Source: Girardia tigrina
Lineage: Eukaryota
Assembly (NCBI GenBank): GCA_001938485.1
Contig: MQRK01185467.1
Span: 1 to 49,455, forward strand
Direction: 5' to 3'
Length of the DNA: 49,455 nt
Of this stretch, positions 38,801-44,800 are shown in pieces; within the stretch, counting starts at the first letter, position 1, and each line of letters opens with the position of its first letter. Position numbers: made by a program.

Positions 38801-41800
38801 GGTTACAAAAAGTCCTCATTATTCAACTTAAAATTAGAAACAAACGATAAAATGGATGCTTCTATTTTCATTAGAGATTTTTTGTGAAGACTCTAGAAAA
38901 TGTCCGTGCTTAAGAAATATTGTGTCAAGAAACATTCTTGGCAATTTATTCGTATATTGCATTCAAATATAAATTGTAGCAAAATGCTTGATCGCTGTAA
39001 CTGAAATAGCTTTTAGGAATAATTAAATAAACGTAGTTTTTTTATTCATTGAGTCTTGCTCAACAAATTACCCTGCTCATAGACAAACTGTTCAATGCAT
39101 CATAAATTTCCCTTTAAAAAGTACGCCCAAAAATCAGACTGAGAAAAAATATTAAATATATGGAATAAAATTTCTACCAAAATACACTAATATTTTCCTA
39201 TTTACAAATTTATTTTGACTTTTTTAGTTATTTTACACTTTGACCCTAAAAATGGAATATACGATGTTCAAAATTTTATATCTTTCCAGAAATATGAATC
39301 CGCCAAAATATGCCATACACTTTCGGAAAATATTACCAGGTTTTGTTATTTTTACTTGAATTTAAAATAATTGAGTGCATTAAATAGTAAATTTTTAAAT
39401 AATTTCTATAATACTTGTACATTTATTTAACCCTCTGACTACCATTGGAACAATACGTCTCAAGCGATTTCAAAGAATTCCAGAGAGATAAATTAGTAAT
39501 CGAAATCGGTTTTTTGCATCCCAGTTGTGTGTAGTGGATGTACTCTTGCGCGCCATCTACACGCACTACCTAGAAACTTGTCAGTACTTATTATCAGTTA
39601 GTTTTACATTTTTTTAATGTTTTTTATTTAATACGAGTAAAAAAATAGTTCGGTAGTCAAAGGGTTAAATCAAAAGGTTAAATGCCCGGTATGGGAGTCT
39701 AGCAAGAAGAGAAAATTTCACAAACAAGTGAAATGTCAGAGACGAACAGAGAAACGATCACAGGAAGAAGTGATCAGTATTTTTCCCTAAAAGATGAATG
39801 TATGTGTATGTTTGACTGCATGTTCGTGTGATAATCGCAAATAATTATTTGAAGCGAAATTCTCGTGATTTGCATCGACAGAGTACGCATGACGATAATT
39901 AAGAGGCTGTGACACTAGAAGACTGTACGAATTCTAGAAGATTAATCAAAGCAGAAGCCAAAGTTTGGAAATTGCTACGAGATGAAGTTATGGTTGATAT
40001 TTTCTTCTTGTAGAAAGTAACAGATAAAAGCGACCTTGATTCGCTCTCTTTTCATGGGAAAAAAATTCAAAAAATTGGTTTGAATGTTACGATGCATTGT
40101 TTCGTGGATGAAAGATCTAATGTGACAGTAAATGGAAAATATGTAAATTTGAGAAAATTATTTTTTCCCGAATTTTTATAAATGTCAAAGAATCTTTTAA
40201 AAGATTCTTCTGAAACGATTTTTCTTATTTTAAAAAAAATTAGTAATGAATTATTGTTTTTGCTTTTTTTAATTATTTCTTTTAATATTTATTTAATTTA
40301 ATTAATAATAATAATTTCTTAATAAAAAATATTATTGAATTGTTGTTGCTTTTAAAGTATTATTTTTTTAATATTTTATTACTTCTATTCTTAGAAAATA
40401 TTTTTCTATTGATTTTTTATAATAAAAATATTTTTTTAATTAAATCAAAAATAATAAAATGATTGCAAAAAAATCGGCATTTAAATTATTTGTTTTCTTT
40501 TTAAAATTTAGAAGATTTTTTTATTAATTAATTATATTAGTAAATAATTAAAAAAAATAGAAACAAAATGAATTAGAAAATATTATTCAATAATAAAAAT
40601 AACAGCGAAAAAAACGTGATTTTTGATTAATTATAAATAATTTATGAAGATTTAAATACTTAAAATTATTTTTATTTTCATTTTTTTAAAAATCAATATC
40701 AATTATTTAATTTAATCATTTTCTTGGGTGTTCTTAGTCATCGATTGAAGAGTGTAAATGTTTGGGGAAAAAACTAAAATCTTAAATAAATTATTTTAAT
40801 TCATTTCTAAATAAAATATTGATTTTTTGACATTCAATATCGTTTTCATTCGAGAAAATTTAAATATTCAAAAAAAATCTAGAATTAAATTAAAATATTT
40901 TTAATGAAAAATTATTAAATACTGACTGAAAATCAAAAAAAATATTTAAAAATTAAAAAAAAGAATTTTCTAGAAATAAATTTAAATGATTAAATTATCA
41001 AATTTTGACTGAAAGAAATTATTTAAAAGAGCAGAATTAAATGAAGATGTCGTTCATAAACGAATATCAAACACTCGTCTAAACTGGGTACTGACACACA
41101 ATCAAATACACCAATAAAATTTAAATATTGATTTTCTTTAATAATAAATATCACATTTAATTTCATTATAATCGCAATAAATCGATATAATAAACTCAAC
41201 CGGTCGTTTATAATTAATATTCGATGTAATTACAATAAAAATCTTTATTTAATTTAATCAATATTAATGATAATAATTCGACAGTGATCGATCATTATAA
41301 GAATTAAATCATTTTCCAAGATAAAAGGATTCGAAAAGATTGAGAGGGTGTACTTCCATACGGGCGCCTGCAAAAATAAAAGCATGACAATATATAAACA
41401 CTTATCGGCATTACAGGAAAAATATTTTAAAAATTGAAGAAAATTATTTAAAATGTTTTTGAAGTCACAAAACCTCAAAGGGAAACATATGGATTGATAA
41501 CGTAATAAACGGATTAACTGACATTCTTCTTCTTCTTCTTTTGACCTCAGCCGTTGGGCCGTGGGTGCATCCAATTATAAACAAGTCTTCGCCACATCTC
41601 TCTATTTGTAGTTTCTTTTCTCAGACATTCCATACTCAGTCCAGTCCATTCTTTTAAATCGTCCATCCATTGCCTCTTTGGTCTTTCTCCTTCCACTCTT
41701 CCCTCAATCATAACCTTTGCTAGTGCTTGTTTTCTTATTTGATGACCGTAGAATATCAGCTTCCTTCTCTTGATGATCTCTTCTATTGATTCCGGTCTTT

Positions 41801-44800
41801 TACCCAGTATTTCTGTCACTCTCCTCCAGACAAAGTCATTTGTCTTCTTTTCTTTCCACGTGATCTTCAGCATTCTCCTGTAGCACTTCATTTCAAACGC
41901 TTTAAGTCTATCCATGCTCTTCTGATTCATTGTCCCACTCTCGCATCCATAGAGGAGTGTTGCCTTAGTGATCTTTAATCTGCTCTTGAGATGGATTTCT
42001 TTGAGGTTAAACACTGTGCTAAGTTACTGACATTATTCGACTTAATTTAGAAAATATTTGTACCAAGATTTCAAAAGAAAATGTTTAATGATTTGTTTCA
42101 TATTTTTTGGGAATGATTAATATATTTTATATTTAAAATTGAATAATTTATTTTGGATTTTCTGTTTTTTTTAATTATTTTCAGTTAATTTTTTATGCAA
42201 AATAAGAAATAGTTTTAAAAAATGAAACGAAAAACAAGTTTAATGAAGAAAAATACGTAAAATAAGGCGGAGAAAGTAGCGATTGTGTAAAATGAATAGA
42301 GCTATTTGCTTAAAAAATTTAAATAATTTTTCCCGGAATGCCGATAATTTTTTATATATTGTCATACTTTTATTTTTGCGGGCGCCCGTACGGAACTACG
42401 CCCATAATTAGAACAAAAATCTTTATTTAATCTATTCAATATTAATGATAATAATTCGACAGTGATCGATCATTATAAGAATTAAATCATGTTCCAAGAT
42501 AAAAGGATTCGAAAAGATGGAGATTATAATTGGAATATGTTCCAATGAAATTATCAAAATTTAATTATTGATGTTCAAAACAATAAAAATCGCGTTAAAT
42601 TCAATCAATAATGAATCAATAGCGAGATTGCGCGCATTTGTAATTGTTGTCCCTCACAATTAGATAATATATCATACAAAAACGAAGACCCTCAATTATC
42701 GATTCTTTGCACATTATTAAATTCCTCCGTTCGCGCTTTAACATTGATTATTTGATTTTATTATAACACAAATGAAAACGGCATTTTGCGAATTTCATCA
42801 ATAAAAATAAAAAATTTATTATTAAAAAATAATTGATTTTTGATGTTGTTATTATATTAGGGTGAACCAAAAGATATTTTATATGTTTTTAAAGCTCTTG
42901 AACTGCTCTATCGCAATATATATTAAAACTTCTAATTAGTCGTTAATATAATTTTTATTGTCTTTTAGAGAAATCATGGAAAATTTTGAAATTCGTGTTC
43001 TTTTACGCCATTACTGGAAACATGGCTTAAACGCAACTGCAGCAACAAAGAAGATATGCGAAGTTGAAGGGGATAATGTGGTCTCAAATCGTACTGCACA
43101 AAATTGGTTCAAAAGGTTCAACGAAGGCGACATTGACCTCGGAGACAATGCACGTTCAGGCCGACCTATCACCGTAGATTCCGGAGCAATTCGTGAAGCC
43201 NNNNAGACAAATCCGTCAATAAGTACTCGCAGATTGTCGGCCGAACTCGATATTCCTCAAACATCCATTGTACGACACCTTCACGCTCTTGGCAAGGTCA
43301 ATAGACGATGTCGAGAAGTGCCTCATGAATTGTAACTTGCGATGAAAAGTGGGCTTACTTCAGTAATCCAGACCAACAAAATCAATGGTTAGACCCCGGA
43401 CAAATGGCGAAACGAGATCGTTTCTCAAGGAAGGCACTTTTGTGTGTTTGGTGGAATTTCGAAGGCGTGATTCACTTCGAGCTGGTTCCAAATGGTCGTA
43501 CCATCGACGCTGACCTTTACTGCGCCCAACGTGATCGAATGTATGCGGCACTTGGCGAGAAATACCCCGCTTTGATCAATCGAAAGCGAGTTCTTCTACA
43601 ACAGGACAATGCAAAACCGCACACCAAAACAAAGGAAAAATCGAAAATCTCGACGCCTTCGAACTTCTTCCACACCCAGCGTATAGTCCGGATCTTGCGC
43701 CATCCGACTATCACCTTTTCCGCTCTATGACACACTTTCTTCGTGGTCGCAGCTTCAATAATCTGGTCGAGGTCGAAAACGGGTGTCTCCAGTTCTTCGC
43801 TTCTAAGAACAAGGATTGGTACCGCAGCGGGATCGCACAACTTGCCCATAGATGGGTTCAAGCTGTAGATTCAAATGGCATTTACTTTGAAACTTAAATG
43901 TTTTTTATTTGTTGTAAAATTATGTTTAAATTGTTAATAGAAAATACGAAAAGACTCTTGGTTCACCCTAATAGAATACTTGGTTTAATCAATGATAATA
44001 GAGTAAAATTATATATTGACCTATCGCGAATGATGGCAATGAGCAGTCAGAGTGTAAAAATAATCAATTGTTGATTTTATTAGTAGGAAGATAATTATTT
44101 ATTTAATCAATAATAATAAAGAAAACGATTAATTATTTTACTCCATCTGCGGTTTAAGAAATAAATGCTGGTTTTATTATCGTATGAATAACAGTTGTGA
44201 CGATCGTAATTCGACAATGAAAGAACGTTATACGGAGAGAGAGACTCGTGTATACGTGCACTAAAAGATCTGTTAATTGATCGTAATTTGTACGAGACAA
44301 TCGGACCAGAGGAGCTCATGTACGAGTGCGTAATAGAAATAAGCAGTAGATCATTTCCTTGGGAAATGACGTCAATAGAAAAAAGATGATTAATTAAAAA
44401 ATTGGAGAGAGCAGTGAGATTACAATTGGAATTTTTGTATTAAAATTTAATCATTGATTTTCTTTTATGACAAAGAAAAAATTTACTGGATTTAATTATG
44501 AATAATATTACAAAATGATATTAAAATAAAATAATTATCGATTTTATATTAATAAAATTTATTTATTTTATTTAATCAGTAGTAATAATAAATGACAAAT
44601 AATAAAATCAATAATTATTGATTTTATTATAATAATTATTATTATTTATTAATTTTATTATTGTAATAATTATTTAATTTAATCAATTAAAATAATAAAA
44701 TATATTAAAATAATTACTTATTGATTTTATTGTTATAAAAATAATTATTAAATTAAATCAATAGTAATATTAATCAAATGATAACATAATTAAATCATTA

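What the first reader, a model, noticed from the sequence alone, without database searches (positions are those of the whole stretch)
41226..42523. DNA transposon flanked by a precise 120-bp target-site-like duplication
Seen: 41226-41345 ends at the base before the left TIR, and 42404-42523 starts at the base after the right TIR; the copies align without gaps (113/120). Established: eukaryotic cut-and-paste TSDs are about 2-11 bp; long variable duplications are known for bacterial IS1549/IS1634-type elements and for P-element hybrid-element insertion. Inference: either a eukaryotic family that routinely makes long TSDs, or a preserved alternative-transposition event. The GGG-starting TIR family is unassigned.
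Basis: partly seen in the sequence, partly recalled or inferred. Interest (0 to 1): 0.7.

Follow-up and report, generated by a model that had tools for sequence, protein, structure and literature searches.

The report
Transposon bracketed by 120-bp host duplication
An old, decayed cut-and-paste-type transposon in a gene intron is bracketed by a duplicated 120-base piece of the intron where a duplication of a few bases is expected, most likely the scar of one aberrant transposition event.

Summary
A 1058-bp unit (41346-42403) with 86-nt terminal inverted repeats (75/86) is bracketed by a gap-free direct repeat, 41227-41345 and 42405-42523 (113/119; 113/120 with the mismatched first base). The repeat touches both repeat tips. 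No 2-15-bp flanking duplication exists. About half of the unit (41526-42025, minus strand) is a later, 5'-truncated LINE piece with its own 9-bp duplication. The original element was therefore a non-coding, MITE-like unit. It lies in an intron of a NOT4/CNOT4-like gene, next to a mariner with ordinary TA flanks.

No second copy of the repeat tips or of the 120-bp unit is in the window. The only DNA collection I could scan (bacteria and archaea) gave no hits.

Best reading (0.45): a one-off, transposase-made flanking duplication of the hybrid-element or alternative-transposition kind. Rivals:
- a single integration with target cuts about 120 bp apart
- a family that always does this
- insertion exactly at the junction of an older tandem duplication
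- integration of a circle by homologous recombination
- an assembly error

Real and uncommon, but a single locus with known precedents. Interest 0.4.

The parts
41227..41345 (.). Copy 1 of the duplicated host (intron) segment. It ends at the base before the left inverted-repeat tip. 41226 is a possible 120th, mismatched base.
41346..42403 (.). The inserted unit, 1058 bp: a non-coding transposon with terminal inverted repeats (MITE-like) that carries a nested LINE piece. No transposase coding capacity was found.
41346..41431 (+). Left inverted-repeat arm, 86 nt. Its tip is GGGTGTACTTCCATACGGGCGCCTGC. It differs from the right tip at 4 of 26 positions, and 3 of these are CpG-to-TpG/CpA changes.
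41517..41525 (.). Left copy of the 9-bp duplication (ACTGACATT) made by the nested LINE insertion.
41526..42025 (-). Nested 5'-truncated non-LTR retrotransposon (LINE) 3' piece, 500 bp. It holds a 155-codon remnant of the reverse-transcriptase protein's C-terminal end (41547-42014) that runs to its own stop, followed by a (GAA)n tail (seen as TTC on the + strand, 41524-41540). One break (the 5' truncation); 0 internal stops and 0 frameshifts in the retained piece.
   Evidence: 21 of 22 hits carry PF00078; 5 of 22 also carry an endonuclease domain; related piece at 22153-22387 and 22649-22686
42026..42034 (.). Right copy of the LINE's 9-bp duplication (ACTGACATT).
42318..42403 (-). Right inverted-repeat arm, 86 nt. 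All 5 CpGs of the tip are intact.
42405..42523 (.). Copy 2 of the duplicated host segment. It starts one base (42404, the mismatched base) after the right inverted-repeat tip.

Best explanation
A non-autonomous, cut-and-paste-type transposon with 86-nt terminal inverted repeats sits in an intron of a NOT4-like gene and was later hit by a LINE. It is bracketed by two copies of 119-120 bp of the intron itself. The duplication stands exactly where a short target-site duplication should be, and no short one exists. I read this as the product of one aberrant, transposase-mediated event in which the two element ends were joined to target positions about 120 bp apart. The most likely route is alternative transposition of the hybrid-element kind. 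In that route the element was already resident at one border of the segment. After replication, its left end on one chromatid and its right end on the sister acted as a pair. They inserted about 120 bp away into the homologue or sister. The element then stays in place, with the stretch between the old and new positions present on both sides. Both copies have since drifted (6-7 differences). Shown: the anatomy, the exact fit, the absence of a short duplication, and the order of events (the LINE came after the element). Inferred: the mechanism and its one-off nature.
For: Repeat length equals spacing minus element length, and the repeat touches both tips. There is no 4-15-bp flanking duplication even with shifted edges. 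Ordinary insertions in the same neighbourhood keep ordinary short duplications: the LINE has 9 bp and the mariner 42857-43971 has TA on both sides. The locus therefore does not blur such marks in general. The 120-bp unit is single-copy apart from this pair, and no tandem array was reported at the site. Alternative transposition is an established source of flanking rearrangements next to a retained element (PMC3744419 passages; an 891-bp flanking deletion made by hybrid element insertion, PMC3887531 passage). I recall from Preston, Sved and Engels 1996 that the duplications lie directly beside the P end and range from a few bp upwards; that text is not held. Weak extra hint: the 7-mer that opens copy 2 (ATAATTA) recurs 16 nt before copy 1, as a donor-site scar would (P about 0.04).
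Against: This is a single locus. No other copy, no empty or precursor allele and no reads could be examined. The structure alone is predicted equally well by a single integration with widely staggered cuts. The 7-mer hint is post hoc, in DNA of 27% G+C. The 9 nt between the two 7-mers show no likeness to the element tips. The superfamily, and hence whether it does alternative transposition, is unknown. The direct duplications made by maize reversed-ends transposition carry the element at the start of each repeat (PMC3744419), which is not the case here.
Confidence: 0.45

Rival explanations
1. A true long target-site duplication made in one primary insertion. The two ends attacked the two target strands about 120 bp apart, or an excised element was captured at a break with long overhangs, and fill-in copied the 120 bp. 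This would be a one-off event in a family that normally makes short duplications.
For: It predicts exactly the observed anatomy with no further assumption. Insertions with long target duplications are documented for bacterial IS1549/IS1634 (8-514 bp, PMC2266710 passages). They are also documented for non-LTR elements (126 bp for R9, a median of 900 bp for Dualen; PMC9977147 passages).
Against: I found no report of such an event for a eukaryotic cut-and-paste element in searches (17, 10, 2 and 3 papers held the terms). The documented eukaryotic cases are retroelements, and this unit's ends are inverted repeats, not a retroelement tail.
Confidence: 0.2
2. The family as a whole makes long, variable duplications. 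It would be a eukaryotic counterpart of IS1634/IS1549.
For: No short duplication is present. The inverted repeats match nothing else available here, so the family is unassigned. Prokaryotic precedent exists.
Against: With one copy, nothing speaks for regularity. Every eukaryotic cut-and-paste family whose duplication length I saw stated in print had a short one (3 bp; 9 nt). Four literature searches found no eukaryotic example.
Confidence: 0.1
3. The intron already held a two-copy tandem duplication of about 117-122 bp, and the element happened to land at its junction.
For: Nearby DNA is rich in AT-rich tandem repeats (44438-45034), and the first 40 nt of the unit resemble them weakly. A 6-nt microhomology (ATAATT) lies at the start of copy 2 and again 122 nt further on. 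A 3-bp duplication with one mismatch (AGA / ATA) cannot be excluded.
Against: It needs insertion within about 1 nt of the junction of a 240-bp target, roughly 1 chance in 120-240. It also needs a missing or decayed short duplication. The microhomology spacing (122) does not equal the repeat offset (120). TRF reports no array at the site.
Confidence: 0.1
4. A circular DNA that held the element plus one copy of the 120-bp segment integrated by homologous or site-specific recombination with the chromosomal copy. That leaves the segment on both sides.
For: Such a model was proposed for genes flanked by long direct repeats (PMC2869330 passages). It also predicts repeats that abut the insert.
Against: It needs a second source of the segment joined precisely to both element tips. 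The segment has no other copy in the window. Inverted-repeat tips at the exact borders are what a transposase, not a recombination crossover, would define.
Confidence: 0.05
5. An assembly artefact: mis-joined haplotypes or a collapsed or expanded repeat.
For: It cannot be excluded without reads. The window has masked or gap stretches (772-949 and 43201-43204).
Against: No N lies within or next to 41226-42523. The two copies differ at 6-7 sites with clean borders at both tips. A join between an element tip and the segment offers no overlap for an assembler.
Confidence: 0.05

Closest known systems
Products of P-element hybrid element insertion (Drosophila; Gray, Tanaka and Sved 1996; Preston, Sved and Engels 1996)
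   Same: The element is retained and a duplication of flanking DNA lies immediately beside it. The length is set by the distance to a nearby target. No second element is needed.
   Different: Those are laboratory events of a known, active family. Here the structure is old (5-6% divergence between the copies), fixed in an assembly and of unknown superfamily, and no precursor or reciprocal product was seen. I could not read the two papers; their content is recalled.
IS1634 / IS1549 (bacterial IS1634 family)
   Same: Elements with terminal inverted repeats, flanked by long direct repeats in place of a short duplication (8-514 bp; PMC2266710).
   Different: Those are prokaryotic and autonomous, and the long repeats are a regular, variable property of many copies. 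Here the host is an animal-type genome (NOT4-like gene, mariner, LINE), the unit is non-coding, and only one copy is known.
Tandem direct duplications from reversed-ends transposition of maize Ac/Ds and other hAT elements (PMC3744419)
   Same: The duplication is made by a transposon, and its junction is set precisely by an element end.
   Different: There each repeat starts with an element (element-segment-element-segment), the sizes run from 8 kb to Mb, and two nearby elements are needed. Here a single element lies between two 120-bp copies.
Long target duplications of non-LTR retrotransposons (R9 of rotifers, 126 bp; Dualen of Chlamydomonas)
   Same: The size class of the duplication and its position on both sides of the insert (PMC9977147 passages).
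   Different: The bracketed unit ends in inverted repeats, not in a retroelement 3' tail. The LINE piece is internal and has its own 9-bp duplication.
MITEs of the Mutator-like kind (e.g. MuTAnT of Medicago, tips GGGG/CCCC, 9-nt duplications; PMC4486113)
   Same: A short non-coding unit with inverted repeats whose tips start with a G run.
   Different: No 9-nt duplication is present. There is no sequence likeness to any transposase-bearing element. The weak MULE-domain piece at 1789-2061 shares no terminal sequence with it.

Membership tests
Cut-and-paste (class II) transposon with terminal inverted repeats, non-autonomous (MITE-like) | Terminal inverted repeats at both ends | tested here: met
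   86 nt, 75/86 complementary
Cut-and-paste (class II) transposon with terminal inverted repeats, non-autonomous (MITE-like) | Short flanking target-site duplication of a length typical of the family | tested here: not met
   No 4-15-nt duplication even with edges shifted by up to 4 nt; a 119/120-bp one stands in its place
Cut-and-paste (class II) transposon with terminal inverted repeats, non-autonomous (MITE-like) | Several copies in the genome and an autonomous partner with like ends | not testable with these tools
   0 further copies in the window. 0 hits in 2 scans of the bacterial/archaeal collection. No eukaryotic genome collection was open.
Hybrid-element / alternative-transposition product | Duplication directly beside a retained element end | tested here: met
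Hybrid-element / alternative-transposition product | A precursor site (element at one border of a single segment), a reciprocal deletion, or a donor scar | tested here: inconclusive
   Only a 7-mer recurrence 16 nt before copy 1 (P about 0.04). Alleles and orthologues are not available.
IS1634/IS1549-type elements | Long flanking repeats of variable length in many copies | not testable with these tools
   Only one copy is known
IS1634/IS1549-type elements | IS1634-family transposase; prokaryotic host | tested here: not met
   No transposase-family match inside the unit: the LINE-piece frame had 0 Pfam families, the 2 further frames tested had 0, and 1 frame was not scanned. The host context is an animal-type gene with eukaryotic transposons.
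Non-LTR retrotransposon with long target duplication | The bracketed unit is a retroelement whose 3' tail abuts one copy of the duplication | tested here: not met
   The LINE tail is internal (41526-41541), 180 nt from the nearest tip, and has its own 9-bp duplication
LTR-type element / terminal-repeat retrotransposon in miniature (the 120-bp copies as terminal repeats) | A short duplication outside the two repeats; internal priming sites; no inverted repeats at the inner borders | tested here: not met
   The bases just outside the copies differ (TCGATG vs TTATAA). The inner borders are the tips of an 86-nt inverted repeat. An 8-mer, TTATAATT, lies 11 nt before copy 1 and directly after copy 2; this is unexplained.
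Mutator-like elements | 9-11-bp duplication; ends related to a MULE transposase-bearing element | tested here: not met
   No such duplication. No likeness to the region of the weak MULE-domain hit. A G-run tip alone is not diagnostic.

The most novel reading that the evidence does not exclude
The GGG-tipped inverted-repeat element belongs to a so far undescribed eukaryotic cut-and-paste family whose transposase routinely joins its two ends to target positions tens to hundreds of bases apart. That would be an animal counterpart of bacterial IS1634/IS1549, for which no mechanism is known.
Probability: 0.1. Interest if true: 0.8.

Novelty: new member of a known kind. Interest (0 to 1): 0.4.

Why it matters
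If the one-off reading is right, this is a clean natural example, preserved in a gene intron, of a transposon seeding a small tandem duplication of host DNA. That process is well shown at the bench but seldom recognised in assembled animal genomes. It is also a practical warning. Annotation tools that demand a short flanking duplication will miss such a copy or set its bounds wrongly. If the family-wide reading were right, it would be the first eukaryotic cut-and-paste family with long target duplications, and the unexplained IS1634 behaviour would become open to comparative study.

Tried and rejected
- **Other copies in the window.** blastn with word size 9, the tip motif with up to 2 mismatches, and ungapped scans of the tips (30 nt, up to 9 mismatches), the subterminal 40-mers and three 40-mers of the duplicated unit. 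None was found beyond the pair itself, apart from one 10-mismatch AT-rich match at 44811-44850.
- **Other copies elsewhere.** Two exact-pattern scans of genome contigs (bacteria and archaea) gave 0 and 0 hits.
- **Hairpin-forming tips.** Not better than shuffles: z = -0.97 and +1.18 for the two tips read inward, -0.40 for the right tip on the + strand. I dropped the idea of hairpin-type ends.
- **RNA families in 40500-43000.** 0 matches.
- **Other pairs in the window with a repeat on both sides of an insert**. 17642-17737 / 18764-18858 turned out to be a dispersed repeat whose second copy lies inside another MITE-like unit. 14050-14178 / 15791-15919 is a 19-bp minisatellite. Neither is a second case.
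- **The weak similarity 41116-41162 vs 42556-42601** (79%). Its spacing does not fit any tandem array, so I treated it as AT-rich chance.
- **LINE-mediated insertion of the whole unit.** Rejected, because the LINE tail is internal and has its own duplication.
- **Age comparison.** Inverted-repeat mismatches versus duplication mismatches gave Fisher p = 0.07, and p = 0.16 without the CpG sites. This is not informative.
- **Literature.** Searches returned mostly phrases such as "9 nt-long" or retroelement cases. The two P-element papers are not held.
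Full report
**Setting.** The window is AT-rich: 27-28% G+C overall, with two N runs at 772-949 and 43201-43204 that I left untouched. I do not take it for human. It carries a mariner, a piggyBac-like fragment, LINE pieces and a NOT4/CNOT4-like gene on the minus strand. The RING piece of that gene lies in 45079-45477; its best solved relatives are 1e4u and 1ur6, NOT4. The end of the RRM, a zinc finger and a long C-terminal exon lie in 31076-32626; the best relative is 2cpi, CNOT4. 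I searched the two pieces apart and did not join them. The finding therefore lies in an intron of this gene.

**The observation.**
- The direct repeat is real. 41227-41345 and 42405-42523 are 119 nt, 95% identical and gap-free.
- Between the copies lies a 1058-bp unit, 41346-42403. Its ends form an inverted repeat of 86 nt (75/86).
- The start-to-start spacing (1178) minus the unit (1058) is 120. The duplicated DNA therefore fills exactly the place of a target-site duplication.
- I looked for a conventional short duplication, shifting each edge by up to 4 nt. No 4-15-nt duplication was found. The only exact match of 3 nt or more was a single 3-mer at shifted edges.

**Anatomy of the unit.**
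- Positions 41526-42025 are a 5'-truncated piece of a non-LTR retrotransposon on the minus strand.
- It holds a 155-codon frame that runs to its own stop.
- That frame matches the C-terminal ends of reverse-transcriptase proteins. 22 proteins had E <= 0.001 among 332 candidates. 21 of the 22 carry PF00078 and 5 of the 22 also carry an endonuclease domain. The best hit is 90% identical. Pfam itself found nothing in the frame.
- It ends in a (GAA)n tail.
- The piece is flanked by its own 9-bp duplication, ACTGACATT, at 41517-41525 and 42026-42034.
- A related piece lies at 22153-22387 and 22649-22686.
- The LINE therefore arrived after the element. The retained piece has one break, its 5' truncation, and no internal stop or frameshift.
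- The rest of the unit is AT-rich and non-coding; no Pfam family was found. The original element was thus a MITE-like, non-autonomous unit.
- Of the 4 differences in the 26-nt tips, 3 are CpG-to-TpG/CpA changes in the left arm, as expected of an old copy.
- The tips do not fold better than shuffled sequence. No RNA family matches the region.

**Controls in the neighbourhood.**
- The mariner 42857-43971 (HTH_48 and Transposase_1) has TA on both sides, and the LINE has 9 bp. Ordinary short duplications therefore survive at this locus.
- A self-comparison of the window gave two other direct-repeat pairs around about 1-1.6 kb of DNA. Neither is a second case. Copy 2 of 17642-17737 / 18764-18858 sits inside another MITE-like unit (18537-18921), and nothing with inverted repeats fills the gap. 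14050-14178 / 15791-15919 is a 19-bp minisatellite.

**What could not be tested.**
- No other copy of the tips, the subterminal parts or the 120-bp unit is in the window.
- The only genome collection open to me holds bacteria and archaea, and gave 0 hits in two scans.
- The superfamily stays unassigned. A weak MULE-domain piece at 1789-2061 (E 4.6e-5, below the curated cut-off) shares no terminal sequence with the element.

**Mechanism.** Five readings fit a segment-element-segment structure.
1. *Local alternative transposition of the hybrid-element kind.* The ends of one resident element on sister chromatids act together and insert nearby in the homologue or sister. The element stays in place, with the stretch between the old and new sites on both sides. 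This is an established class of event (PMC3744419 passages; PMC3887531 passage, for the reciprocal flanking deletion). I recall from Preston et al. 1996 that the duplications lie directly beside the P end and range from a few bp upward; that paper is not held.
2. *One primary insertion with target cuts about 120 bp apart.* The precedents are bacterial IS1549/IS1634 (8-514 bp, with no mechanistic model; PMC2266710 passages) and non-LTR elements (R9 126 bp, Dualen median 900 bp; PMC9977147 passages).
3. *The same as a regular property of the family.*
4. *An older two-copy tandem duplication hit exactly at its junction.* Because repeat length equals spacing minus element, the insertion would have to fall within about 1 nt of the junction, roughly 1 chance in 120-240. 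A short duplication would also have to be missing or decayed; AGA/ATA at the edges is a possible 3-bp remnant with one mismatch.
5. *Integration of a circle by recombination* (the model of PMC2869330), *or an assembly error*. No N lies near the structure, and the copies differ at 6-7 sites with clean borders.

I rank reading 1 first (0.45) because it is the one documented way in which a eukaryotic cut-and-paste element ends up with an arbitrary length of flank duplicated directly beside it. The rest follow: reading 2 at 0.2, reading 3 at 0.1, reading 4 at 0.1, and the circle and the artefact at 0.05 each.

**Small unexplained details.**
- The 8-mer TTATAATT occurs 13 times on the + strand of the window. 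Two of these lie 11 nt before copy 1 and directly after copy 2 (P about 0.008 for a 30-nt span).
- The 7-mer ATAATTA that opens copy 2 recurs 16 nt before copy 1 (P about 0.04).
- These may be chance in AT-rich DNA, a donor-site scar, or microhomology. The microhomology spacing is 122, not 120.
- Five of the 7 mismatches lie in the first 32 nt of the repeat.

**Literature.**
- I saw passages only, never whole papers, of PMC9977147, PMC9179366, PMC4486113, PMC2869330, PMC3744419, PMC3439972, PMC2266710, PMC6824096, PMC2528002, PMC7023781 (reference list only) and PMC3887531.
- Searches (17, 10, 2 and 3 papers held the terms) showed me no eukaryotic cut-and-paste family with duplications of about 100 bp. 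This is a limited search of open-access text, not proof of absence.
- Titles in a reference list point to long target duplications in Helicobacter and beside some endogenous retroviral terminal repeats. I did not read those papers.
The length distribution of the Dualen duplications is one item I could not see.

**Verdict.** The structure is real and unusual, but it is one locus with known mechanistic precedents: a new member of a known kind, interest 0.4. The boldest reading still open is a eukaryotic family with routine long target duplications, at a probability of about 0.1.

Noticed in passing
window 42857-43971: A mariner-type element right beside the finding. It has HTH_48 and Transposase_1 matches, inverted ends and TA on both sides. 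Its transposase frame is split over at least three frames, and 4 N lie inside it.
   Followed up: partly
window 31076-32626 and 45079-45477 (minus strand): Exon pieces of a NOT4/CNOT4-like gene: the RING piece, and the RRM end with a zinc finger and a long low-complexity C-terminal exon. The finding lies in the intron between them. The pieces were searched apart and not joined.
   Followed up: partly
window 17642-17737 and 18764-18858; 18537-18921: A second direct-repeat pair (96 nt, about 95%). Its second copy lies inside a 385-bp MITE-like unit with 80-nt inverted arms. It is a dispersed repeat, not a second case of a bracketing duplication.
   Followed up: yes
window 14851-15624; 14050-14178 and 15791-15919; 14316-14511: A piggyBac-like transposase fragment (PF13843, profile positions 1-147 of 349, at least one stop) with a 19-bp AT-rich minisatellite on both sides. 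Nearby is an 80-nt near-tandem pair with a GC-rich hairpin core.
   Followed up: partly
window 1020-1375: A foldback structure with arms 1043-1158 and 1238-1353 (116 nt, 94% complementary, 79-nt loop), directly after the N run 772-949.
   Followed up: no
window 1789-2061 (minus strand): A weak MULE transposase-domain match (E 4.6e-5, below Pfam's cut-off). It shares no terminal sequence with the GGG-tipped element.
   Followed up: partly
window 44438-45034: A very AT-rich block of nested tandem repeats (periods about 31, 42-47, 85 and 97) that is also self-complementary. The first 40 nt of the duplicated segment resemble it weakly.
   Followed up: no
window 41208-41216, 42404-42410, 42524-42531: Short AT-rich motifs recur at the outer edges of the duplication: TTATAATT before copy 1 and right after copy 2, and ATAATTA before copy 1 and at the start of copy 2. 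The cause could be chance, a scar or microhomology; it is not resolved.
   Followed up: partly
window 18151-18395 and 49183-49429: A dispersed repeat of about 250 nt (80%, inverted orientation) of unknown kind.
   Followed up: no
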